Below are positions 51,921 through 64,000 of a stretch of 64,000 nucleotides of DNA, in pieces (the first letter of the stretch is position 1; every line of letters begins with the position of its first letter). Origin of the DNA: Myxococcales bacterium. GTDB lineage: Bacteria; Myxococcota_A; Polyangia; Polyangiales; DASUME01. The translations under genes and the position numbers were made by a program. Under the pieces are notes generated by a model, which saw only the letters and a list, made by a program, of their open reading frames with translations, did not search any database and was not told the DNA's origin. Location: the NCBI GenBank assembly GCA_047601445.1, contig JASGJH010000001.1:864001-928000 (forward strand), read 5' to 3'.

Positions 51921-52511
51921 TCACGGTGACTCCGGGTGCAAACAAAGTCCGAACACGAGGAAGGGCGCGCACACGTAGCCGTCCTCCGCGCGACAATCGC
52001 TGTCGCTCGCACACAGGCGCTGGCACTGCGTCTCCTCGTTGTAGGTCACGCACGCCGCGCCCGCTCCGCACTGCGTCGCGTGCAGTGGATCGCAGTCGCG
52101 CGTGCAGTAGCCGTGCGGCGAGCCGAGATCCCCTTCTGTCAGGCAACGATGACCGGCCCCAAGGTCCGCGCAGTCCTCGTCGCTCGTGCAGCCCGCGCCC
52201 ACGCGTCCCGCGGCGGCCGCCAAGTCTCTCCCCGCATCCTGACCCGTGTCATCCTTCTCGTGCGAGGCTTCGGACGTTGCCACCAGGCTCGCGTCCGAAG
52301 GCACCTGGGCGTCTGCAGAGAACGAGTCGTCGGGCGCTTGGGCGTCGGATGCAGCATCCGTCCGAGCGGGCAGGGCAGGTGAGTTTGCGTCGCTCGCGTC
52401 CTCGCTCGGCGGCGACGCGGGGCGCGCCGAAGCGAGTTCCGAGGTGGGCTCTTCGGCATGTTCGCTGGAACAGCCGACGAGCAGAATCACGAGTGCGAGC
52501 TGCGTTCTCAT
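51921..52511 (-). CDS. Cys-rich lipoprotein
   Basis: Lipobox LVGC; Ser/Asp/Ala linker; GAGCTSDEDC, GYCTRDC, CASDSDCR..GYVC. Confidence 0.75.
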   Translation of the reverse strand: MRTQLALVILLVGCSSEHAEEPTSELASARPASPPSEDASDANSPALPARTDAASDAQAPDDSFSADAQVPSDASLVATSEASHEKDDTGQDAGRDLAAAAGRVGAGCTSDEDCADLGAGHRCLTEGDLGSPHGYCTRDCDPLHATQCGAGAACVTYNEETQCQRLCASDSDCRAEDGYVCAPFLVFGLCLHPESP

Positions 52512-52674
52512 CGCACTTCATCTAGACACCGACGACATCGCGCTGCACGGACTGGCACGGCTGCGCTTGCGCTTTGTGGGTGAGCCACGTCGCACAATCG
52601 CGAGCGCTGTTTCGAGGCTCACGCGGACGGTGTGATGGACGTCGAGCTCAGGCAATTCTGCCCAGGAAGAGCGC

Positions 52675-52708
52675 GAAAAAAACGCCTCATCCCAGCTGGG
52701 AATGCATG
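52675..52708 (-). terminator. Possible intrinsic terminator downstream of pyk
   Basis: Minus strand CATTCCCAGCTGGGATG hairpin followed after 5 nt by T7. Confidence 0.4.
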
Positions 52709-52740
52709 CCCTCTTGGCGCTGCGCCGGTGCCGCCTGCTG

Positions 52741-54168
52741 TCAGTGAAAGACGCGAATCTGGATGCTCGAGACGTTCTCGCCACCGGCCGCCACGTCGGT
52801 CACCACCACGATGGGATCCCCGGGCAACACGCGGTTGCGCTGACGCAGGCGCTCGAAGGCGGCGCGGATGGTCTTCTCGGGATCGCTCGAGAAGTCCATC
52901 TTGAAGGGCACCACCGAGCGCGTCAGCCAGAGCTTGCGGCGCGTGGTGCTCATGTTGGTAAAGGCGTAGATGATGGCGCGCTGCGGGCGATAGCTCGCGA
53001 CCATCTGGCCCAGCATGCCGCGGCGGGTCATCACCACGATGGCCGGGGCATTCAACGAGTCCGCCAGGCGACAAGCGCTACGTGCGAGCTCGTCACGGAT
53101 GGTCTGGGGCTTCTTGTCCGCGATGACGTTGTAGCCGGGTTCCTTCTCCACACGGCGCGCGATCTTGTCGAGCATTTGCACGCAGCGGTCGGGGAATTTT
53201 CCGGTGGCGGTTTCGCCGCTCAACATGATGGCGTCGGCCTGCTCGTACACGGCGTTGGCCACGTCGGTGACCTCGGCGCGCGTGGGCGTGGGGCTGTCGA
53301 TCATGGATTCGAGCAAGTGGGTGGCCACGATGACGGGCTTACCGGCCAGGGCACACTTGCGGACGATCATGCGCTGAATGCGCGGGAGCTCCTCGATGGG
53401 CACCTCGACGCCGAGGTCGCCGCGCGCCACCATGATGCCGTCGGCCACCTCGAGGATCTGCTCGAAGTTGTCGACGCCTTCCTGGTTCTCGATCTTGGCG
53501 ATGATGCGCGCGTGGCCGCCCTTGGACTGGACGATCTCGCGTGCGTCGAGCACGTCCTGAGGGGAGCGCACGAAGGAGAGCGCGATGAAGTCGAGGTCGT
53601 TGTCGACCGCGAACTCGATGTCCTTCTTGTCCTTCTCCGTGATGGAGGGCAGGTTCACGCGCACGCCGGGCAAGTTGATGTGCTTGCGTGAGCCGAGCGT
53701 GCCGCCATCGAGCACCTTGCAGCGCAGGCGTCCCTCGGTGATGTCGAGCACCTCCAGGTTGATCAAGCCGTTGTCGACAGTGACCTTACTGCCGACCTTC
53801 AGGTCCTTGACCATGTCCTGGTAGTTCACGTGCACGCTCTTCTCTTCCGGGTTCTCGTTGGTGAGCACCGTGAAGGAGAAGATCTCGCCGACCTTGAGAT
53901 CGATGTTCGTCTTGAGCTCGCCCGTGCGGATCTCCGGGCCCATCGTGTCGAGCAAGATGGAGACCGGATGGTTGAGCGAGCGGTTGAGGCTCTGAATGCG
54001 CCGCACGATCATCAGCGCCGACTTGTGCGAGCCGTGCGACATGTTCAGACGCGCGATGTTCATGCCGGACTGCGCCAGCTTCTGAATCATGCGCGAACTA
54101 TCGGTCGCGGGGCCGATCGTGCAGACAATCTTGGTGTGTCGAAAATCCCGTCGTTCCTGCGCCGCCAT
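52741..54168 (-). CDS. pyk: Pyruvate kinase
   Basis: [59 protein letters not shown]. Confidence 0.98.
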
Positions 54169-54221
54169 AGGGCCGGAGCTTGGCATTGTGTGAACAATTA
54201 TGCCAACTTCGCGGTGTGACA

Positions 54222-55194
54222 ATGGAAGCGGTCAAGACGCAGGCGCCGACCCGTCTCGGTCGCAGGGCGCTGTACGCCGTGTTGCTCGCGATCGTGGTGT
54301 TCGCCGGGCTCGGCCTCGCCAGCGACCTCGGCTCGCTCGGTGAGAGCCTGGCGAGTTTTCACTGGCCTGCGCTCGGCATGGCGCTCGCCCTCGTGCTCGG
54401 GAATTACGTGCTGCGTTTTCTGCGCTGGCAGTACTACCTGGGTGTGCTGGGGGCGCAGGTGCCGGTGCGGCTGAGCGGGCTCGTGTTTCTGTCAGGCTTC
54501 GTGATGAGCGTGACCCCGGGCAAGATGGGAGAGCTGTTCAAGTCGGTGCTCCTCCACGAGTATCGCGGCATCAGCATCGCGCGCACGGCCTCCATCGTGG
54601 TGGCCGAGCGGCTCCTCGATTCTGGTGGCCCTGGTCCTGTTGGTGAGCCTCGGCAGCACGGCCTTCCCCCACGGCCGCGCGGTCGCCTTCGCGGGAGGCA
54701 GCGTGGTGGCGGCCATCGTGCTGGTGTGCGTGGCTCGCCCGGTGGGGCACTTCCTGCTCGATCGGCTAGCGAGCTTCGGGCCCACGGCGCGCATCACACC
54801 CAAGCTGCGCGAGACGTACGACGCACTCAACACCCTGACCCGTCCGCGCGCCTTCGTGGTCGGAGGCGGCCTGGCGGTGCTCGGCTGGGCGCTCGAGTGC
54901 GTCGCGACCTGGGTGTTGGCTGGCGGCTTCGGGATCTCCATGCCGTTCAGCGGAGCTACCTTCGCCTATGCGGCGGGCACGCTGGCAGGAGCGCTCGCGA
55001 TGTTGCCCGGCGGACTCGGCGTGGCGGAAGTGGGGATGTCCGGGCTTTTCCGTGCCGCGTCGCCCGAGCTGTCCTTGGCGGGCGCTTCGGCGATCACGAT
55101 CTTGGTACGCCTCTCGACCCTGTGGTTCGGGGTCGCACTCGGGGGGCTCGCGCTACTCGTGCTGCGGGCAACCGAGCGAAAGCAGGACGATTAG
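54222..55194 (+). CDS. Lysylphosphatidylglycerol synthase TM / UPF0104 flippase-like protein, frameshifted at ~54620
   Basis: RFLRW, TPGKMGE, ERLLD; removing one T at GATTC 54618-54622 continues LVALVLL...PGGLGVAE...RLSTLWF. Confidence 0.88.
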
Positions 55195-55334
55195 AATTTT
55201 CGCACGGGACTGTCCGACCGTGTTTGGTAGCAAAGTAGGCGGCTGGCGAAGCTGTGCGCATGAGTCGCATCAAAAAACCATGAACAGGCGGGTAGGCGTT
55301 GCGGGCGCTTACGGCGTCCGCCCATGATGACCTG

Positions 55335-56204
55335 GTGCAGCGGTTTACCCCTTACGCCCTTGCGCTCGTGTGTGCCCTGAGTGGCGTCACTGGAGCTAAC
55401 GCAGAAGCGCCCGGGGGCCTCGCTGCTCTCGGCCTTTCCGGGGCAGACGGCACCGTACGCGCTCAGGCGAACGTAAGGTTGGCCGTGGCCGTGGCGCCGG
55501 GGTCGCCGGACTTCGCGGTGCGCATGAGCGAGCCTGTGCGCCAGCAGATGGGCAGCATCCGCACCTGCTTCGGGCAGGCCATGGGGCGCAGCGCAAGCGT
55601 CCAGGGGCGCGCGGTGTTCGAGATCGAGGCGCTGTCGCAGGGACGTTCGCGCACGCGCGTGACCTCGAACCGCACGGGCGATCAAGAGATGGTGGAGTGC
55701 ATGCGCGCCAGCCTCTCGCAAGTCGGCTTCCAGGGCATTCCTCGCGGTGTCCGATCGCTGATCACGCTGGATCTCACCAACCCGTCTGCGCAGAACCAGC
55801 TCACCGCCAAGACTCAGGACGCGGCGCCCAGTCCAGTGAAGGTCTTGCCGGGTGGTCGCGCCGAGAGCGAGGGCGGCACGCAGCAGGGCGAGGTTCAGTT
55901 CCGCATCTCCGGTGCAGCCGAAAACCGCACGGCCATCGAAAACCTGCACAACGACGTGTCGCAGCGTTTCGCGGGTTTGCTCGACTGCCGCCGCAAGAGC
56001 TCGCGCAAGAATCACCCTGCGACCGGCACCATCACGCTCAAGCTATCCATCGAGAACGGTAAGGTCGCCAAGATGCGCTCCAAGGCGGATCGCTCGGTGG
56101 GCTACAAAGCTCCGGGTTGCGTGATGGAGTGGCTCGGTCGCGCCGATTCCAGCCGCCTGCGCCCGGCCGAACTCGAGCTGGCGATCACGTTCGGTAAGGA
56201 CTGA
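55335..56204 (+). CDS. Secreted protein with two TonB-C/AgmX-GltG-like C-terminal-type domains
   Basis: Signal peptide; two repeats of helix-C...G...beta-beta...C pattern (IRTCF..VECM; LLDCR..PGCV). Start estimated. Confidence 0.55.
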   Translation: MQRFTPYALALVCALSGVTGANAEAPGGLAALGLSGADGTVRAQANVRLAVAVAPGSPDFAVRMSEPVRQQMGSIRTCFGQAMGRSASVQGRAVFEIEALSQGRSRTRVTSNRTGDQEMVECMRASLSQVGFQGIPRGVRSLITLDLTNPSAQNQLTAKTQDAAPSPVKVLPGGRAESEGGTQQGEVQFRISGAAENRTAIENLHNDVSQRFAGLLDCRRKSSRKNHPATGTITLKLSIENGKVAKMRSKADRSVGYKAPGCVMEWLGRADSSRLRPAELELAITFGKD

Positions 56205-56285
56205 CACCGAGCGAGCGCTGGGAGCAGGGGGGCAGCGCCCAAATCAGCTCGCTGTGTTTCGCGCCGGCTGCTACCTGAGGGCGCG

Positions 56286-57188
56286 ATGACATCTGTTGTT
56301 CCCGGCGGGCGCCGCGGCGATGCGAGCCGTGGTCAGGGCACGCTGTCTCTGCGCTATGAAGACGTCGCCCAAGACGGACGACTCAAGCCGATCGCCATGC
56401 CGCACGGGATGGGCGTGGTGGCCTATCGCAAGCTGTGGAACCCCACGCCCCTCGCGAGCGCGTTGCGTGAGCGCGGCATTCTACCGATCTTGAGCCGACT
56501 CAAGATGGAGAGCCTGGGTGGACCCGTGAGCGTGCTGCAGCCGGTGGAGGTGCAAGCCTGGTACGAGCTCTGCCATCTGCGCGGATCCAACGGCGAGGTG
56601 CAGCGCGTGCTGCTCAACCTGGGCGCCGATCTATACGGCTCGCGCGGTCGCACCCACGATCCGCAGCCGCTCGCTGGCGGTGAGCGCATCCAGGTGGGTC
56701 GTGTGTTCGCCGAACACGTCTTCACGCGTCCATTCGCGGCGCCCGAAGCGCGACGCGTGAGCGGGGCGGATTTCGAGGGACTCGACATCGGAGCCGAGCT
56801 GCCCACGCCCGACGGGCGCGGATCGCTGGCACCGCCAGACGCGAGCCGTGCGCTCGACGCAGACTTCGTGGCCGACCCGGCGGACACCGTATTCGGACTC
56901 GGTCAGACCGACTCCAACCAACACATCAATTCGCTGGCCTATATCCCGCTATTCGAGGCCACGGCGCTGCGGCGCCTCGCCGATCACGGGCGGGCGACGG
57001 AGCAGTTTCAACTGCGGGAGATCGAGCTCACCTACCGCAAGCCGTGCTTCGCTGGAGATCGCATGCGTAGCGCGTCCCGTGTCTTCCAGCGCGACACGAC
57101 GCTGCTCGTGCGAGCCTTGATGGCGCCCCACGGGGCGAGCGTGGAGCGCGCCCACTGCACCTGTGCCCTGACGTTCGAGCCGCGGTGA
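56286..57188 (+). CDS. Acyl-ACP thioesterase-like double hot-dog protein
   Basis: LRYEDVAQDG, TDSNQHINSLAY, YRKPCFAGD. Confidence 0.75.
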   Translation: MTSVVPGGRRGDASRGQGTLSLRYEDVAQDGRLKPIAMPHGMGVVAYRKLWNPTPLASALRERGILPILSRLKMESLGGPVSVLQPVEVQAWYELCHLRGSNGEVQRVLLNLGADLYGSRGRTHDPQPLAGGERIQVGRVFAEHVFTRPFAAPEARRVSGADFEGLDIGAELPTPDGRGSLAPPDASRALDADFVADPADTVFGLGQTDSNQHINSLAYIPLFEATALRRLADHGRATEQFQLREIELTYRKPCFAGDRMRSASRVFQRDTTLLVRALMAPHGASVERAHCTCALTFEPR

Positions 57189-57191
57189 ACG

Positions 57192-57686
57192 CTACTTGAG
57201 CTTGGTCTTGCTGCCGGCGAGGCGCAGCACGTGGTTGAACTCGCCAGCCTGCACGGGTTGCACACTCAGGCGCATGCCGCGCTTGATCACGAGCATCTCC
57301 TGGCACTTGGGGTCGCTCTTGAGCTGGTCGAGGGTGACGAACTCGGGGAACTTCTCCACGAACTCCACGTCCACGCGATCCCAGCGCGGCGCTTCGGGCT
57401 TGGACTTGTCGTCGTAGTAAGGGCTCTTGGGGTCGAACTGGGTCTCGTCGACGTAGGCCTCGCGGCCGATGCGCATGAGCCCCACCACGCCCGGCGGAAT
57501 CACGCTCGAGTGGTAGAAGAAGGCGAGGTCCCCGAGCTGCATGTTGCGCATGTGATTGCGGGCCTGGTAGTTGCGCACGCCTTCCCAGGTGCCGCGGTCG
57601 GCCTTCTTGAGGTCGTCGATGGAATAGACATCCGGCTCGGATTTCATCAACCAGAACTGCGGGGTGCGCTTGGTGGACTTCGGCAT
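57192..57686 (-). CDS. EVE domain protein
   Basis: WLMKSEPDVYSIDDL, WEGVRNYQARN, GDLAFFYHS, RLSVQPV. Confidence 0.96.
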   Translation of the reverse strand: MPKSTKRTPQFWLMKSEPDVYSIDDLKKADRGTWEGVRNYQARNHMRNMQLGDLAFFYHSSVIPPGVVGLMRIGREAYVDETQFDPKSPYYDDKSKPEAPRWDRVDVEFVEKFPEFVTLDQLKSDPKCQEMLVIKRGMRLSVQPVQAGEFNHVLRLAGSKTKLK

Positions 57687-57771
57687 GGGCAACGGCTGTG
57701 CTCTACGGAACTTGTCGGCCCCTGGCAACGCGGCGTTGACTTCTCGCCGCCTGCGCTCTAACCGCTACTCC

Positions 57772-58380
57772 GTGCACGCATCGCGCTGGCTCTGCCTCAC
57801 CACCTTGCTCTGGCTGCTCGCCGGCGGAGTGCAGGCCCAGAGTCAGCCCGCGGTGGGCACCTGCCTCGGCGGCAATTGTCAGGTCGGTTCGCCCGCCTTG
57901 CCCCAGCAGGACGCGCAGCAGGAGGTCAGCCCGCCCCGTGGATTCGCCCGTGGTGCGGCCTGGTTCGGCCTGCTGAGCGGAGCCCTCACGCTGGCCGGTT
58001 CGGTGACGATCGCCAGCGTGCACGACCAAGCCTCCGAGCCCATCACCCGGGGCGTCTGGATGGGCTACACCGCGCTGGCGCTGCCGGTGGTGGCCCTGGG
58101 CAGCTTCACCACCCGCAAGCGCGCGAGGGTCGACGGTCTCAAGCCGCTGCGTGGGCTAGGCTGGACGGCCTACGCCGGGGCGGTCACCAATGGCGCGGCT
58201 CAGTTCTACCTGGTGCTGAACGACTCCAGGCCGAGCGCGGGTTTCACCGTGGGCCTCGGCGTGATCAGCCTGATGGCCTTCCTGCCCCATGCCTTCGATG
58301 CCTTCGTCAGCTACCGCAGTGCGCGCAGCAGGGGGTTCGCGCTGGCGCCCACTTCGAGTGGGTTCGTGGTGCGCTTCTAG
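57772..58380 (+). CDS. Hypothetical secreted/membrane protein
   Basis: Signal peptide, about 4 hydrophobic segments, myxobacterial-type LAPTSSGFVVRF terminus. Start estimated. Confidence 0.6.
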   Translation: MHASRWLCLTTLLWLLAGGVQAQSQPAVGTCLGGNCQVGSPALPQQDAQQEVSPPRGFARGAAWFGLLSGALTLAGSVTIASVHDQASEPITRGVWMGYTALALPVVALGSFTTRKRARVDGLKPLRGLGWTAYAGAVTNGAAQFYLVLNDSRPSAGFTVGLGVISLMAFLPHAFDAFVSYRSARSRGFALAPTSSGFVVRF

Positions 58381-58393
58381 GGGCTCGCCGCTT

Positions 58394-59149
58394 TCACGCG
58401 GGCGTTGCTGGCGCCGCGGAACCGGCTGGCCGACCCGCGAAGAAGCGCTCGGCTTCGCGCAGCTCCCCGGGGGTTCCCACGTGGATCCAGTCACCTCGGT
58501 GCACCAGACCGCCCATGCGCGCCAGGCTGCCGTCGGGTCGCTCGGCGGCGCGATAGAGCTCGCGCAGCGAGAACGGGGCGACCGTACGGCCTGCGAACAA
58601 CGCGGGAGTGAGGATTTGCAGGCCCGAGAACACGTAGCGAGGGGAAGGGCTTCGCACGAGCTCCCCCTGCTCGTTGAGGTCGAAGTCGCCAGGCCCCCGA
58701 TAGCCGATCGCGCGCTCGCGCGGATGCAGCAGGAGCAGGGCATCGAAGCGGGCCGGGTCGAAGGCCTCGCTCAGGCGGCCGAGCGCCGAGGAGTCGCCTG
58801 CGTGGTCGAGCCAGATCGTGTCGCTGTTGGCGCTGAAGAAGGGCCCCTCACCGAGCAGCGGCAGGGCCTGCATCACACCGCCTCCGGTCTCGAGCAGCAC
58901 TTCCTCCCGTGAAAGCGCGATCGCGCTCGGGCCCCGACGTGCCGCCACGTGGGCCGCGATTTGCTCGCCCAGGTAGTGGCAGTTCACGACGATGCGCTCG
59001 CAGCCGGCCTGTTCGAAGTGTGTCAGCGCGTAGTCGAGCAGTGCCCGGCCGCCGACCTGGACCAAGGGCTTGGGCGTGCTGCGCGTGAGCTCGCCCATCC
59101 GCGTACCGAGGCCGGCCGCGAACACCATGGCACTGCGAAGGACGGCCAT
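58394..59149 (-). CDS. Nucleotidyltransferase (MurU-like)
   Basis: AAGLGTRMGELT..PKPL, LLETGGG, PFFSANSD, WIHVGTP. Confidence 0.9.
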   Translation of the reverse strand: MAVLRSAMVFAAGLGTRMGELTRSTPKPLVQVGGRALLDYALTHFEQAGCERIVVNCHYLGEQIAAHVAARRGPSAIALSREEVLLETGGGVMQALPLLGEGPFFSANSDTIWLDHAGDSSALGRLSEAFDPARFDALLLLHPRERAIGYRGPGDFDLNEQGELVRSPSPRYVFSGLQILTPALFAGRTVAPFSLRELYRAAERPDGSLARMGGLVHRGDWIHVGTPGELREAERFFAGRPAGSAAPATPA

Positions 59150-59150
59150 C

Positions 59151-59837
59151 TCAATCCATGAACAGGACTTTGCCGCGCAGTAGCGAGGCCCTCACGGGGC
59201 CGAAAGCACGGCTGTCGTTCGAGCGGGTGCGGTGATCGCCCAGCACGTAGATGTGATCGTCGGGGACGCGCACCGGCGGCAGCGTCTGACCCCACTCGAG
59301 CGAGCGGCTGATGCGCCAGTGGTGGGCGTCGGAGGACTCCGTGTAGGTCTCACAGATGGCGTAGCGGCTACGGAAGCGGCCGGGCGGGCAGGCGTGCGGC
59401 CCATCGTTGGTGAGCAGAGCGCCGTTGCGGTAGATGGCGTCGTTGCGCACTTCGATCACGTCACCGGGCAGGCCGATCACGCGCTTCACGAGATCTTCCG
59501 AAGGGTCCTGTGGGCTTGCCAGGATCACCACGTCGCCCACGTCGGGGAGCGCCCAGCTCACGATGGCGTCGGCGAGCCAGGGCAACGCCAGACCGTAGGC
59601 ACAGCGCGCGACGAAGAGCTTCTCACCCGTGAGCAACGTCGGCTCCATGGAGGGCCCGTCGACTTCGTAGGCCTGGGCGATACCCACGCGCACCGCCACC
59701 GCAAGGCTCAGCGAGACCACCAGGGTCTTGGCCAGGTCCCACAGGCGCTCGACCGTGGTGGGGCCAGCATGCGTGGTGATCGCCGGATCGGGGACCGGCG
59801 TATCGTTTGGCTCGCTGTCGTCGCGCTGTGATTCCAT
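59151..59837 (-). CDS. lepB: Signal peptidase I
   Basis: GPSMEPTL, DLVKRVIGLPGD, VLGDHRTRSNDSRAFG. Confidence 0.95.
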   Translation of the reverse strand: MESQRDDSEPNDTPVPDPAITTHAGPTTVERLWDLAKTLVVSLSLAVAVRVGIAQAYEVDGPSMEPTLLTGEKLFVARCAYGLALPWLADAIVSWALPDVGDVVILASPQDPSEDLVKRVIGLPGDVIEVRNDAIYRNGALLTNDGPHACPPGRFRSRYAICETYTESSDAHHWRISRSLEWGQTLPPVRVPDDHIYVLGDHRTRSNDSRAFGPVRASLLRGKVLFMD

Positions 59838-59947
59838 CGATTTTCCGTTCAGGAGCCCGCGTTTCACCAGGCGAGCTACTCGAGATTTTGTTGCGTGACG
59901 CCGGGCGTGGGTGCTCCGAGCCGGCTCACTCCCGCGACACGCGCGGA

Positions 59948-60124
59948 TTAGCGGCGGCCCTTGAAGCCCATCATGCCTTGAACCACGGATTCACTCTGTT
60001 TGGCGACTTCGTGCTCTTCGCGGGCACGGTCGGCGCAGTCTTCGCAGAGCTTCTTGGCGCGCCCGTCGACCTTGACGCTGACCAACTCGTCGACCTCATC
60101 CCCACAGCTACGACAGACCGGCAT
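59948..60124 (-). CDS. Small zinc-ribbon protein (58 aa)
   Basis: MPVCRSCGDEVDELVSVKVDGRAKKLCEDCAD...; two CxxC motifs; GGAG RBS upstream. Confidence 0.75.
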   Translation of the reverse strand: MPVCRSCGDEVDELVSVKVDGRAKKLCEDCADRAREEHEVAKQSESVVQGMMGFKGRR

Positions 60125-60271
60125 TGGCGCTCCACTTCCCCGGAAACCAATGAGAAGCATGCACGTTTTCTGGGCATTTGAACAGGCACCGCCGGTGTTC
60201 ATCGGGCATTGCTCCGGGGTGGGAGAAGCGCTGCAAGTGGCCCACTCGAGGGTAGGCTAAGCTGGCACCGC

Positions 60272-61108
60272 GTGACGCTCGCACCTGGTTTCGTCCGGTT
60301 ATCGATACGACCTCTCCCGAGCTGGCTCGACGTGAGCCGGCTGCTTGGGCGTGAGCCCGAGGAACTCGCGCCGCTCGGGGAAGGCGAGTTCTCGGCGACA
60401 CTGGTCCTGCCGAGTTCCGAGGCCGCCCTGATTGCAGCTCGGCTGCGTGCGCTGGGGCTCGACGGCAAGCCTCTGGAAGTGATGGCGAAGCCAGCCCTCG
60501 GGCGCAGCGCGGTGCGAGCGGGTCGGCTGGCCGAGGCGCGTGAGCGCAGGGTCACCACACCAGGCTTCTTGCGTGCGGGCGCGCGCGCCACCGGGGAAGG
60601 GCGCTATTCGCTGACGCCGGAGGCGCTGGCCCTTCGGTTGGGCGAGCTGGCTGCAGGTCGCAGCGTGGTCGAGGCCTGCGTCGGAAGTGGCGGCAACAGC
60701 GTTGGATTCGCGAGGGCGGGCTGCCGGGTGCGGGGCTTCGACGTGGATGCGGAGCGCCTGGCGGAGGCCCGCCACAACACCCAGGTCTATGGGGTGGCCC
60801 AGCGCGTGGAGCTGGTCCAGGCAGATGCCCTCAGCGCCGTGCCCGGCGAGCGGGCCGAGATCCTGTTCGTGGATCCCCCCTGGGGGGGTGAAACCTACGA
60901 TAAGCGCTACTCGGACCGCACGACCTTCCCGCTGCTGGACCAGCTCTTGGCCCAGGATCTCTCCGGCTATCGCGAGGTCTGGATCAAGGTGCCAAACTCG
61001 TTTCGGGTGGCCAGCGTGGACGGGGCGCGGGCCGAGGCCTGGTTCGGCGAGGCGGCCGGGGACCGTCACCGCATCAAGTTCGTGCTGCTGCGACGTGAGC
61101 AGCGCTGA
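60272..61108 (+). CDS. TGS1-like (RNA cap guanine-N2) class I SAM-dependent methyltransferase
   Basis: EGRYSLTPEALA, VVEACVGSGGNSVGFA, FDVD..RLAEARHNTQVYGV, LFVDPPWGG. Start estimated (ORF is open from 60209). Confidence 0.8.
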   Translation: MTLAPGFVRLSIRPLPSWLDVSRLLGREPEELAPLGEGEFSATLVLPSSEAALIAARLRALGLDGKPLEVMAKPALGRSAVRAGRLAEARERRVTTPGFLRAGARATGEGRYSLTPEALALRLGELAAGRSVVEACVGSGGNSVGFARAGCRVRGFDVDAERLAEARHNTQVYGVAQRVELVQADALSAVPGERAEILFVDPPWGGETYDKRYSDRTTFPLLDQLLAQDLSGYREVWIKVPNSFRVASVDGARAEAWFGEAAGDRHRIKFVLLRREQR

Positions 61109-61263
61109 AGCGAAGAGTATTCCGAGAGCATTGCCGACGGTTGCCTGCTCGAGGGTGCAGGGGTAGGCTTCGCCGCCGATTCGTTCGGATAGTCAGAAAA
61201 CACACCCTTTACTGGACCGGCAGGCAGGGGCCGACGGGCCCAGACGGCGTGAGAGGACAAGAA

Positions 61264-61545
61264 GTGGCCAAGAAGAAACGCGGAAGATTCAACGAGGACG
61301 CGTTCGCCGCTGATGGCGAAGACGAGGACGTACGCGACGACCACGTCAAGCTCGATGGCGTGGTCACGCAGGTGTTCGCGGGCGGTCAGTTCGAGGTCAA
61401 CACGGATGCAGGCGCCGTCGTTCGCGCGCGCCTTTGCGGTCGCATGCGCAAGTACCGCATCCGCGTGATCCTTGGCGACAGGGTGACGGTGGCCCTTTCG
61501 CCCTACGACCTTAGCCACGGGATGATCGTCTTCCGCGCCAAGTGA
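61264..61545 (+). CDS. infA: Translation initiation factor IF-1 with N-terminal extension
   Basis: LDGVVTQVFAGGQFEV, LCGRMRKYRIRVILGDRVTVALSPYDLSHGMIVFR; GAGGA RBS upstream of GTG. Confidence 0.93.
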   Translation: MAKKKRGRFNEDAFAADGEDEDVRDDHVKLDGVVTQVFAGGQFEVNTDAGAVVRARLCGRMRKYRIRVILGDRVTVALSPYDLSHGMIVFRAK

Positions 61546-61757
61546 AGAGGGGCTCGCGCCGGGCGCCCGTCGGTCGTGTGGACCGCGCGCTCGAGGCTGC
61601 GGGAACTCACGATGGCGGCCCTGCGGCTGTCCCACGCGCCACCACAGTGCAAGCGCGCGTAGGTCGATGCAGAAAAAACAACAAGCCGCAATACAAAACG
61701 ACTGCGCAATGTAAGGCATAAGCGCGGTACGATCGCCGTTGAGGCGGACAACGGTCG

Positions 61758-62849
61758 ATGGGTGTTCCGAAGGGCGAGGGTAGGTCGCGGGGCTCGCGGT
61801 CCAAGGCGGACCGGCGGGCCGAAGGCACGCGCCAGGGGTCGAAGTCGGGCACCATCGAGCGCAGTGAGATCGAGGAAGTAGAAGCAGTGGGTTCCAAGGG
61901 GTACGAGGGGCAAGGGCGCAGCAGCACTGCGGTGCTGGAGCGGGTGGTGGAAGCGCCGCCCCTCGAGATGCTCGAGGCCGCTCCGACCCAGCTGCCCGAC
62001 GACTCCGCGAACTCGAACCACCGCGCCGACATGGTGTTGTACGCGCCGCCTCCACTGGCATTGCCCAGCGGCGATTCGCCGGAGGTCTCGCGCGGAAGCC
62101 GCGAGCACACGCAACGCCTGGAGTCCGCCTCCGTGCTCGATGCGCCGGCGTCGATGACGGAGAGCGTGTCGCCGCCTAAGCAGAACTCCTGGGCGCTCAA
62201 GGCCTGGGTGGCGGCGATGCTGAGCATCATCGCTGCGGCCGGTATCGTCGCGCTGCGAGAGCAAGGCGCGCGACCGTCGTCGTCGGAGCCGGCGGCCGAG
62301 CTGAGTCCGAGCGTGCCGGCGGCACCGAATGCGGGGCCATCTCAAGTCGTTTCGCCGGTCGTCGGCACTGCTGGCAGCACGGGGGTTACCGCCGTCGCGC
62401 CCGTGGTTCCGGGCGTGAGCGCGCCCGCGGCCACGCCGCCGGCGCTTCCGGCAACCGCCGAGAGCGAGGCTGAACCCGACCCCGATTCGCCGGAGGGGCG
62501 AGCCAAGGCGCGGCGCGCTGCGCGTCGTGAGGCCGCGGAGCTCGCGGCAGCGGAGGCAGCCGCCGCGGCCGTGGTCGCCGACGCCTCCAAGGTGAGTGCC
62601 ACTTTGGCGACCAGGCCGCCGCCGCCGAGTCCCTCCGAGAAGGCATTCGAAACCACCGAGCCCAAACCTGCGGAGAAGACGCCTGAGAAGACGTCCGCGC
62701 CGCCTGAGGCCGCCGCGGCACCCGCACCAGCACCGGCCCCCGCGGAGGTCGCTGGGCCCGCTCCGGCAGCGCCGCGCGAGCCGAGCGCACCGATGCCGCA
62801 GATCCCGGGCAATCCGTACGGAAGCGACGACGCCACCGGCACGCCCTGA
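61758..62849 (+). CDS. Single-pass membrane protein with Pro/Ala-rich regions
   Basis: One TM (WVAAMLSIIAAAGIVAL) with low-complexity flanks; C-terminal PGNPY. Confidence 0.6.
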   Translation: MGVPKGEGRSRGSRSKADRRAEGTRQGSKSGTIERSEIEEVEAVGSKGYEGQGRSSTAVLERVVEAPPLEMLEAAPTQLPDDSANSNHRADMVLYAPPPLALPSGDSPEVSRGSREHTQRLESASVLDAPASMTESVSPPKQNSWALKAWVAAMLSIIAAAGIVALREQGARPSSSEPAAELSPSVPAAPNAGPSQVVSPVVGTAGSTGVTAVAPVVPGVSAPAATPPALPATAESEAEPDPDSPEGRAKARRAARREAAELAAAEAAAAAVVADASKVSATLATRPPPPSPSEKAFETTEPKPAEKTPEKTSAPPEAAAAPAPAPAPAEVAGPAPAAPREPSAPMPQIPGNPYGSDDATGTP

Positions 62850-62877
62850 CGCGCCACCTGACCCGGGCCAACAACCC

Positions 62878-63495
62878 TCAGGGCGAGGTGTGGAGCGAGA
62901 GCGTCAGTACCGCGACGCCGTGCTCGTCGAAGTCGGCATACAGCGCGCGCGTGCCCAGGTTGAGCAACTGATCCTCTGGGGTTCCTTCGTCGGCACGTAG
63001 CGGAGGTGTCAGCCTGCCGTGCTCGTCGACCAACACGCCGGTCTCACGGATCACTTCGAGCATCGAAGCCATCGCGGGGTCCGACGCCGACAACGACTTG
63101 CGCGAGGCGACCACCACCAGCTGCGCTTCGCCCGAAGCGCGCGTCAACAGGCCCCGAGGCGCCTGAAAGATCGCCTGTCTCACCGGGCGCCCGGAGTCCG
63201 TGCGCAGCACCTCCCCGGTCTGCCCGTCTGGGGTCACGAAAATCATGCGCACGTAGCAGTCCACCGAGACCTCTACGCTGGCCCACAGCGTATCGGCCCC
63301 GGTGAGCACCTGTCCGGGACACAACGGATTCTTGTCGCCGGTGCGATCCGCCGCCAAATACACGTGCAGCGCGTGTCCGTGGTCGGCCTGGATGACGCCG
63401 CAGCCATCGTCCTTGCGCGGGACGAGCGCCACGCTGCCTGCGCAAGCGCACACGAGCGTCGAGAGCGCGTATACGAGCCGCCACCTGGTCCGCAT
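62878..63495 (-). CDS. Hypothetical lipoprotein (DUF4384-like Ig-type region possible)
   Basis: Signal peptide with CAC; DTLWASVEVSVDCYVRMIFVTPDG, QLVVVASRKSL. Confidence 0.55.
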   Translation of the reverse strand: MRTRWRLVYALSTLVCACAGSVALVPRKDDGCGVIQADHGHALHVYLAADRTGDKNPLCPGQVLTGADTLWASVEVSVDCYVRMIFVTPDGQTGEVLRTDSGRPVRQAIFQAPRGLLTRASGEAQLVVVASRKSLSASDPAMASMLEVIRETGVLVDEHGRLTPPLRADEGTPEDQLLNLGTRALYADFDEHGVAVLTLSLHTSP

Positions 63496-63569
63496 CCGCC
63501 GCGCATCATAGCGAGTCTCGCCCGTGGCGGATATGGGGCTCTCGGGGTCGCCTTGTCCGCAGTCGCCGC

Positions 63570-64000
63570 TCAGAACTCGGCGCGCACGCCGAGGTTGGGG
63601 ATGGAGATCGGCGTGACTGCCGTGGCGATGCAGCGTCCGAGCAAGCAGTCCGCGTCGAGGTACTCCTTACGCACCAGCATGTTCAGCCACTCGAAGTAAG
63701 CGAGCATGTTGGCAAAGCGACCCGGCCAGCGATATCCGATGCGCATGTCGAGGCGCACGAACCAGGGCAAGCGCTGTGCATAGCTCGGGTTGAGCTGCTC
63801 GATCAGACGTCCGGAGCGCGCCGAGAAGCGTCCCCCGAGCTCGAGGTGACGCCAGATGCGCCATTGCAGCACCGTATTCAACACGTGGCGCACGTCGAAG
63901 TCCGGCTTGAACTTGCCGATCACCTCGGGCCCGCTGTCGGCTTCCGCCCAGCCCAGCGTGTAGCTGATCCAGCCCGTCAGGTCCTTGTCGAGATTGCGCT
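63570..64000 (-). CDS. TonB-dependent receptor, C-terminal part (truncated by window edge)
   Basis: LTGWISYTLGWAE, FDVRHVLN, RLPWFVRLDMRIGY, terminal PNLGVRAEF. Confidence 0.88.
   Translation of the reverse strand, partial: RNLDKDLTGWISYTLGWAEADSGPEVIGKFKPDFDVRHVLNTVLQWRIWRHLELGGRFSARSGRLIEQLNPSYAQRLPWFVRLDMRIGYRWPGRFANMLAYFEWLNMLVRKEYLDADCLLGRCIATAVTPISIPNLGVRAEF

What the first reader, a model, noticed from the sequence alone, without database searches (positions are those of the whole stretch)
60272..61545. Bacterial TGS1-like (cap trimethylguanosine synthase) methyltransferase next to an IF-1 gene
Seen: the protein carries, in order, EGRYSLTPEALA / EACVGSGGNSVGFA / FDVD..RLAEARHNTQVYGV / LFVDPPWGG. 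Known: eukaryotic TGS1 has the corresponding EGWFSVTPE.IA / DAFCG.GGN.IQFA / IDID...ARNNA.VYG / FLSPPWGG motifs and N2-methylates m7G caps. Bacteria have no canonical m7G caps, so the substrate is unknown. The protein also has a ~100-aa basic N-terminal domain I cannot assign. It lies 155 bp upstream of a co-oriented IF-1 and divergent from a small zinc-ribbon gene. Inference: it may modify a guanine in an RNA (m7G/m2G in rRNA or tRNA, or a non-canonical 5' cap) linked to translation initiation. This is my best candidate for an undescribed system here.
Basis: partly seen in the sequence, partly recalled or inferred. Interest (0 to 1): 0.72.

Follow-up and report, generated by a model that had tools for sequence, protein, structure and literature searches.

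The report
Bacterial relative of cap methylase TGS1
This gene encodes a bacterial member of the enzyme family that eukaryotes use to add extra methyl groups to RNA caps; its target is unknown, its position beside the translation factor IF-1 is only a local gene order, and its wider family may be where the eukaryotic enzyme came from.

Summary
Window 60272-61108 (+) encodes a 278-aa TGS-family methyltransferase (PF09445 64.8 bits). Its model matches human TGS1 at Z 23.7, including part of TGS1's N-terminal extension; the next best match is 17.0. The guanine pocket is kept (W204, S113, T115, D201, Y209). The phosphate contacts K646/R807 are not, and F804 is an invariant Lys, giving the Asp/Lys pair of RsmJ. 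The N-terminus is a neutral ferredoxin-like domain plus an Arg-rich segment. TGS-like genes occur once each in 48 of 301 sampled phylum genomes. The IF-1 link fails: 3 of 80 loci, all in the window's genus. Best reading: a guanine-N2 monomethyltransferase acting on RNA, most likely an internal rRNA/tRNA guanine (0.45); a cap-like 5' G is the main rival (0.2). With two outgroup sets, eukaryotic TGS1 nests among prokaryotic forms (AU p 0.014 and 0.036), but the root is unresolved. Ten literature searches found no description of the bacterial family, though automatic annotations already say 'tgs1'. The scan's earlier notes hold nothing on it.

The parts
60272..61108 (+). TGS-family SAM-dependent methyltransferase gene, 278 aa (P0001)
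60290..60490 (+). N-terminal ferredoxin-like domain (residues 7-73, beta-alpha-beta-beta-alpha-beta); net charge about neutral; R23, R57, R59 conserved in at least 90% of 42 rows; no family assigned
   Evidence: secondary structure; generic ferredoxin-fold matches at Z up to 5.5 from a low-confidence model; no Pfam hit and no significant PDB sequence hit
60491..60619 (+). Arg-rich helix and TGS N-terminal extension (residues 74-116), ending in EGRYSLTP; R78, R82, R85, R90, R93, R111 are Arg/Lys in all 42 aligned rows
60620..61105 (+). Class I Rossmann core: SAM motif (E134-N142), D157, N169, catalytic DPPW (201-204), Y209, K239-x-P241, group-specific C-terminal loop FGxxxGDxxRxK (258-269)
60258..60263 (+). 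TAAGCT, a -10-like hexamer 8 nt before the GTG, with no Shine-Dalgarno visible; possibly a leaderless or short-leader transcript (inference)
   Evidence: TAAGCT or TACACT 6-8 nt before GTG in 3 of 3 genomes aligned; not called by the promoter scan
61141..61169 (+). TTGCCT-17-TAGGCT, a promoter-like element upstream of infA, suggesting infA has its own promoter (weak)
   Evidence: kept in L032, altered in L033; the pattern occurs 3 times in the window against 3.5 expected, so not significant on its own
61267..61545 (+). infA (IF-1) with a 22-aa N-terminal extension; neighbour only within the genus; a second, divergent IF-1-family gene lies elsewhere in the genome
59948..60124 (-). 58-aa CxxC...CxxC protein heading a run toward lepB and a MurU-like gene; neighbour only within the genus

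Best explanation
A stand-alone SAM-dependent guanine-N2 methyltransferase of the TGS clade that adds one methyl group to a guanine in a folded cellular RNA, most likely an internal G of rRNA or tRNA. Shown: TGS fold, SAM site and guanine pocket. Inferred from TGS1/Tgs2 structure and mutants: the base stacks on W204 against S113, D201 and the P202 carbonyl activate N2, and N2 attacks the SAM methyl. Inferred, weaker: K239 fills the pocket that F804 offers for the first methyl group, so only one methyl is added. Inferred, weakest: the ferredoxin-like domain and Arg-rich helix grip an RNA body, as the accessory domains of Trm11/Trm14/RlmL are known to (recalled). My odds: guanine-N2 chemistry about 0.85; internal rRNA/tRNA G as target about 0.45 overall.
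For: Fold and pocket; PMC2709555 results and discussion. Ten of the 11 residues important in Giardia Tgs2 (PMC1865056) have the same or a conservative residue here; the mapping was made through motifs and human equivalents, and the Giardia sequence was not aligned. RNA-body binding: 19 positions are Arg/Lys in at least 70% of 42 rows, 11 of them in all 42. Internal target: the DP..K-x-P pair is shared with RsmJ (E. coli and 6 of 6 phylum RsmJ sequences) and a PG_1098-like protein (L142); the cap-phosphate residues K646 and R807 are not kept in group A; no capping guanylyltransferase (PF01331) or cap N7-methylase (PF03291) was found in the 98.7%-complete genome. Inheritance looks like housekeeping RNA modification: one copy in each of 48 of 301 genomes, clustered by family, no family-wide neighbour, none found in viral contigs, and only one 26%-coverage plasmid-collection hit.
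Against: No target is identified. It does not stand in for known m2G enzymes: 3 of 18 genomes with strong RsmJ hits also have it, against 48 of 301 overall; 23 of 48 positives carry an RsmC/RlmG-type MTS hit against 54 of 253 negatives; RsmD-like is present in this genome; and RlmL/Trm14-like NPPY proteins co-occur in relatives. The stacking residue is Trp in all 42 unselected rows, and W143F inactivates Tgs2 (1.4%), whereas RsmC, Trm11 and RsmJ use Phe/Tyr; this favours an m7G substrate. R186, the R807 equivalent, is dispensable in Tgs2 (73%), so its loss does not rule out cap binding. The N-terminal domain could not be assigned to any RNA-binding family.
Confidence: 0.45

Rival explanations
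1. It N2-methylates cap-like 5' guanines on bacterial RNA (Gp4G or m7Gp4Gm-type dinucleoside-polyphosphate caps, or guanylylated ends), giving m2G or m2,7G caps that protect or mark transcripts.
For: TGS pocket and extension kept. m7Gp4Gm caps at about 1200 fmol per ug of small RNA in E. coli, where methylation protects against RppH (PMC7044304 passages). Sister groups B and C keep Arg at the R807 position (76% of 21, 80% of 15), and group B keeps the LFSRW extension motif. A short TGS form follows rtcB in 2 of 73 metagenome loci.
Against: Group A lacks K646 and R807. No capping or N7 enzyme was found in the genome. Such caps are shown in E. coli, which has no hit at E 1e-8 or better for PF09445 (control); nothing is known for Myxococcota. 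No decapping or cap gene is a recurring neighbour among the clusters annotated.
Confidence: 0.2
2. It keeps the TGS requirement for N7-methylation and converts an internal m7G (16S G527, tRNA G46) into m2,7G.
For: Invariant Trp for cation-pi stacking. Tgs1 and Tgs2 need prior N7 methylation (PMC1865056). The genome encodes TrmB-like and RsmG-like enzymes.
Against: TrmB and RsmG are near-universal, so their presence does not discriminate. The 2020 review lists only m7G, not m2,7G, for bacteria (PMC7694415 passage). Whether the pocket admits a 3'-linked nucleotide was not tested.
Confidence: 0.1
3. It acts on a free guanine nucleotide (m7GDP/m7GMP from eukaryotic prey, GTP, or (p)ppGpp) for detoxification or signalling.
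For: TGS enzymes work on free m7GDP/m7GTP without RNA. Many hosts are predatory or alga-associated lineages (recalled ecology; taxa).
Against: A conserved basic surface and an extra domain are not needed for a small substrate. No nucleotide-salvage neighbour recurs.
Confidence: 0.1
4. One reading: a dedicated system with IF-1 (and the zinc-ribbon protein) that modifies an RNA used in translation initiation.
For: Co-oriented with infA at a 158-bp gap here and at about 170-180 bp in two genus mates.
Against: 3 of 80 loci, all same genus. The gap grows to about 1.5 and 2.9 kb in two other genus mates. The whole block (EVE, MurU-like, lepB, Zn, MT, infA) is plain genus synteny. infA has its own promoter-like element (weak).
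Confidence: 0.05

Closest known systems
Human TGS1 methyltransferase domain (PDB 3GDH/3EGI; PF09445)
   Same: Fold including part of the extension (Z 23.7, rmsd 1.8, 179 residues, 27% identity); W766, S671, T673, N704, D719, N731, P764/P765, Y771 and P806 equivalents.
   Different: D for S763, K for F804, no K646 or R807, Arg for W669, altered LFSRF motif, an added ferredoxin-like domain, and a host with no capping enzymes found.
Giardia Tgs2 and mimivirus Tgs (DPPW forms)
   Same: DPPW motif (PMC2709555); 10 of 11 important Tgs2 residues matched by motif. Tgs2 adds a single methyl.
   Different: Not aligned or placed in my trees. The F18 equivalent is uncertain (human F655 aligns to P97, while F99 is the invariant aromatic). 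That mimivirus Tgs can methylate G lacking N7-methyl is recalled; those papers were not held.
RsmJ (16S rRNA m2G1516; PF04445)
   Same: DP(M)F plus VVK-x-P pair; profile match probability 90%, E 1.4e-6, over 109 columns.
   Different: No PF04445 hit in this genome at E 1e-3; different N-terminus; co-occurs with the family; falls outside the TGS clade.
Trm14/TrmN, Trm11, RlmL (THUMP-type m2G methyltransferases)
   Same: Guanine-N2 chemistry on a Rossmann core (Z 15-16.5); their N-terminal ferredoxin-like subdomain is an architectural parallel (recalled; PF22020 seen in a neighbour).
   Different: No THUMP hit; NPPY/DPPY instead of DPPW; NPPY proteins fall in the outgroup.

Membership tests
TGS clade (PF09445) | Profile score above cut-off and best among methyltransferase families | tested here: met
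   64.8 bits against 22; next family 27.9
TGS clade (PF09445) | Class I core plus N-terminal extension ending in S-x-T-P-E | tested here: met
   model residues 94-277 align to 3GDH 649-844, Z 23.7 against 17.0 next; TGS1 residues 634-648 are not covered
TGS clade (PF09445) | (S/D)PPW motif with stacking Trp, opposing Ser and structural Asn | tested here: met
   D201, W204, N169 and T115 invariant, S113 at least 90%, in 42 rows not selected by motif; 4 of 120 homologs read DAPW and one is cut short
TGS clade (PF09445) | Groups with TGS1 to the exclusion of RsmD, RlmI, RlmD, RlmL/Trm14-like, RsmJ | tested here: met
   96/93 support with the first outgroup set; only 79/77 with RsmJ and a PG_1098-like outgroup
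Eukaryotic TGS1 (trimethylguanosine synthase proper) | Cap-phosphate contacts K646 and R807 | tested here: not met
   E88 and N242 here; variable among 115 group-A rows
Eukaryotic TGS1 (trimethylguanosine synthase proper) | Hydrophobic F804 pocket proposed for the second methylation | tested here: not met
   K239 in 115 of 115
Eukaryotic TGS1 (trimethylguanosine synthase proper) | Methylates N2 of m7G caps and needs the N7-methyl | not testable with these tools
   needs an enzyme assay
Eukaryotic TGS1 (trimethylguanosine synthase proper) | Host makes m7G caps | tested here: inconclusive
   PF01331 and PF03291 not found in the genome; non-canonical caps cannot be seen from sequence
RsmJ | PF04445 above cut-off | tested here: not met
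   no match in G000
Trm14/Trm11/RlmL | THUMP domain | tested here: not met
   no THUMP hit at E up to 0.1; only 73 residues precede the TGS extension
RRM or other named RNA-binding domain (N-terminus) | Sequence profile or specific structural match | tested here: inconclusive
   0 of 29 members hit Pfam; best PDB E 0.36; Z up to 5.5 to CutA, ACT and RRM-type folds from a pLDDT-59 model

The most novel reading that the evidence does not exclude
Myxococcota run a cap-hypermethylation pathway of their own: this enzyme N2-methylates G- or m7G-containing 5' caps (Gp4G type) on bacterial RNA. The prokaryotic DPPW/Lys family to which it belongs is the stock from which eukaryotic TGS1, and so the trimethylguanosine cap of spliceosomal RNAs, was recruited. 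The ancestry part taken alone I put at about 0.6; the cap-substrate part at about 0.2.
Probability: 0.15. Interest if true: 0.9.

Novelty: new variant of a known kind. Interest (0 to 1): 0.58.

Why it matters
TGS enzymes are described only from eukaryotes and giant viruses in the papers I could read. A single-copy, family-clustered bacterial branch with an intact guanine pocket must have a substrate, so it points either to an unmapped m2G/m2,7G mark in bacterial RNA or to bacterial cap methylation. It also makes the origin of the eukaryotic TMG-cap enzyme testable: prokaryotic forms surround eukaryotic TGS1 in both trees. Cultured carriers exist (Haloferula rosea KCTC 22201, H. chungangensis CCUG 61920, Enhygromyxa salina SWB005/SWB007, Plesiocystis pacifica SIR-1), and simple TGS assays are published.

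Tried and rejected
IF-1 and zinc-ribbon linkage: rejected beyond the genus. Stand-in for RsmJ or RsmC/RlmG: no complementary distribution; kin are not independent, so these are counts, not a test. Family-wide partner gene: none. The commonest neighbours (xth in 19, a Ser/Thr kinase in 18, an aconitase-like gene in 17 of 80 loci) occur largely in the same block of loci; that gene caller recovered the methyltransferase itself in only about 54 of 80 loci, so these counts are lower bounds. The first neighbour clustering was swamped by antisense frames and discarded. Mobile origin: no relatives in viral contigs, none in phages for a short-form query, one 26%-coverage hit in plasmids; these scans use exact peptide patterns or one query and can miss giant-virus Tgs, which do appear by fold. 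N-terminal domain: no assignment. Non-coding RNA nearby: no Rfam match in 52000-64000. Expression: no RNA holder listed. The single-sequence genome scan found nothing. In the tree one row (P0221) was mis-trimmed; it and three other long rows (RsmJ, L021, L022) were left out, which also used fewer rows per group. Percentages are on rows selected for [DS]PPW (115 of 120 in group A), so motif conservation is quoted. One scan pattern and the pattern contained DPPW. No complex was predicted, because no binding is claimed.

Full report
Observation. Pfam assigns PF09445 at 64.8 bits, cut-off 22. No NCBIfam model reaches its cut-off. The best solved relative by sequence is human TGS1 (E 7.8e-19); Trm11 follows at 5e-4. 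infA is 158 bp downstream and the 58-aa CxxC gene starts 147 bp upstream on the other strand. The closest named homologs are Polyangiales, so the host is probably a myxobacterium (inference).

Structure. An AlphaFold2 model from 42 homologs has mean pLDDT 96.3. Foldseek ranks six human TGS1 chains first (E 1.4e-13 to 5e-10; TrmN next at 2.4e-9). A search of 48,161 chains gives 3GDH Z 23.7, rmsd 1.8 over 179 residues, against 17.0 for the next. The aligned range, 94-277 to 649-844, includes much of the extension that TGS1 needs for cap binding (PMC2709555, results and discussion read). Residues 7-73 form a beta-alpha-beta-beta-alpha-beta domain. Folded alone (pLDDT 59) it matches only generic ferredoxin folds at Z up to 5.5, and its 29-row alignment finds nothing in Pfam or PDB sequences. 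It is neutral; the basic part is residues 74-112.

Active site. Human numbering comes from the paper and the alignment (offset worked out by me). Kept: W766=W204, S671=S113, T673=T115, N704=N142, D719=D157, N731=N169, Y771=Y209, P806=P241. S763 is D201; S763D keeps 97% activity in TGS1, and the Asp is essential in Giardia Tgs2. Not kept: K646, R807, W669 (Arg here) and F804 (Lys in 115 of 115 group-A rows). Of 11 residues important in Tgs2 (PMC1865056, sections 14 and 15 read), 10 are matched by motif; the F18 equivalent is uncertain. R186, the R807 equivalent, is dispensable there. The Asp...Lys-x-Pro pair is also in E. coli RsmJ, in 6 of 6 phylum RsmJ sequences and in a PG_1098-like protein. 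That suggests the bacterial state is the older one (inference).

Distribution. 350 proteins matched among 8000 candidates scored. In named genomes 148 of 252 pattern hits were relatives; of the 80 kept, 16 are titled Verrucomicrobiota and most others Myxococcota or loosely labelled 'proteobacteria'. In 301 phylum genomes, 64 had PF09445 at E 1e-8 or better. I kept the 48 hits at 1e-10 or better, removed G276 (PG_1098-like) and added G225, and saw DPPW in all 48. Of the other 15 weak genomes, 6 were checked and were RlmD, RlmI or PrmC-like; 9 were not checked. Each of the 48 has one copy. In the Verrucomicrobia class sample only the seed genome matched, 1 of 151, which fits a transfer into the Haloferula/Luteolibacter line (inference). 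The profile search also showed longer forms that share the ferredoxin-like segment (groups B, C, E, about 290-530 aa), short forms of about 200-245 aa (group D) and eukaryote-type SPPW proteins. Group D includes proteins named for Legionella and Nocardia and lies among ordinary cellular genes in metagenomes. The Atlas lists bacterial, giant-virus and eukaryotic PF09445 clusters near a group D query.

Neighbours. An IF-1 profile found IF-1 in 3 of 80 group-A loci, 0 of 20 B/C/E regions and 0 of 73 metagenome loci; 78 of the 80 had 600 bp or more downstream and 58 had 3 kb or more. Within the genus the gap is about 170-180 bp in two genomes and about 1.5 and 2.9 kb in two others; in three more the contig ends or holds no IF-1. 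No neighbour spans the family.

Substrate tests by genome content. RsmJ and RsmC/RlmG-type genes co-occur with the family at or above background. This genome has RsmD-like, TrmB-like and RsmG-like genes and no hit for eukaryote-type capping enzymes. So it is not a replacement for a known m2G enzyme, and there is no canonical cap. m7Gp4Gm caps are reported in E. coli (PMC7044304, passages), which keeps a cap-like target open.

Phylogeny. With RsmD, RlmI, RlmD and NPPY outgroups (46 rows, 196 columns) the tree is (B,((A,C),(E,(D,eukaryote-type)))); E+D+eukaryote-type has 95/90 support. With RsmJ and a PG_1098-like outgroup the root moves into group A, with B+E+D+eukaryote-type at 99/97 but the ingroup itself at only 79/77. 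Holding all prokaryotic forms together is rejected both times (AU p 0.014; 0.036). Holding the ferredoxin-bearing groups together is not (0.29; 0.21). So eukaryote-type TGS1 appears to arise among prokaryotic forms, nearest group D, while a specifically myxobacterial root is not shown. Limits: long outgroup branches; three rows of odd composition; only one of the nine eukaryote-type rows carries a taxon name; some group D rows have no taxon and could be viral or eukaryotic; Giardia and giant-virus Tgs are missing.

Mechanism and verdict. Most likely SAM-dependent single methylation of guanine N2 in an RNA, with W204 stacking and D201 activation (inferred from TGS1/Tgs2) and RNA gripped by the basic surface (inferred). 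Target: internal rRNA/tRNA G 0.45, cap-like 5' G 0.2, internal m7G 0.1, free nucleotide 0.1, IF-1-linked system 0.05, other 0.1. It is a member of the TGS clade but fails two defining features of eukaryotic TGS1 proper.

Literature. Ten searches (listings seen) turned up no description of a bacterial TGS family. Passages only were seen of PMC4615557, PMC7694415, PMC13602947 (no 'trimethylguanosine' or 'Myxococc'; one 'tgs' string, not among the passages shown) and PMC12872463 (no 'TGS'). The yeast Tgs1 modelling paper (Mouaikel 2003) and two RNA papers on Tgs specificity were not held and could mention prokaryotic homologs. No supplements were read; those of eukaryogenesis gene-family surveys could list this family. 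Database labels such as 'tgs1 [Myxococcaceae bacterium]' and 'trimethylguanosine synthase' exist, so the homology is known to pipelines. The scan's earlier notes gave three eukaryotic TGS1 items and nothing on this family; none changed my reading.

Noticed in passing
L219:3-1076 and L221 (metagenome loci): A short TGS form lies directly downstream of an RtcB ligase gene in 2 of 73 loci, with an HNH gene further on. RtcB makes guanylylated RNA ends (recalled), a possible cap-like substrate for that subgroup.
   Followed up: partly
L198, L199, L200, L201, L204: A ubiquitin-like/Mut7-C RNase gene lies upstream of the short TGS form in 5 of 73 loci (adjacent in four, one small ORF between in L204), in at least two different gene contexts.
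   Followed up: partly
P0126 (ENA cluster, 45 members): An 867-aa protein with a hydrophobic N-terminus holds a complete group-A domain inside; possibly a eukaryotic, organelle-targeted copy. Taxon unknown.
   Followed up: no
P0190, P0191, P0194, P0200 (group B): Group B proteins carry about 230-290 extra N-terminal residues; P0190, the one scanned, has no Pfam hit there.
   Followed up: no
L174, L175, L177 and 19 group-A loci: An exonuclease III-family gene lies beside the TGS-like gene both in one block of group-A loci and, two genes away, in three group-B loci.
   Followed up: partly
window 61267-61545 and G000:C1:6642060-6642242: The infA here has a 22-aa charged N-terminal extension; a second, divergent IF-1-family gene exists elsewhere in the genome.
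   Followed up: partly
window 57192-57683 (-): An EVE-domain gene (modified-base reader family, recalled) lies 2.6 kb upstream; among the loci it appears only in genus mates.
   Followed up: partly
L007 (G009:C109) and L013 (G026:C10): The search reported one stop inside the match in two homologs, and G026 shows the match in two frames; these may be broken copies or assembly errors.
   Followed up: no
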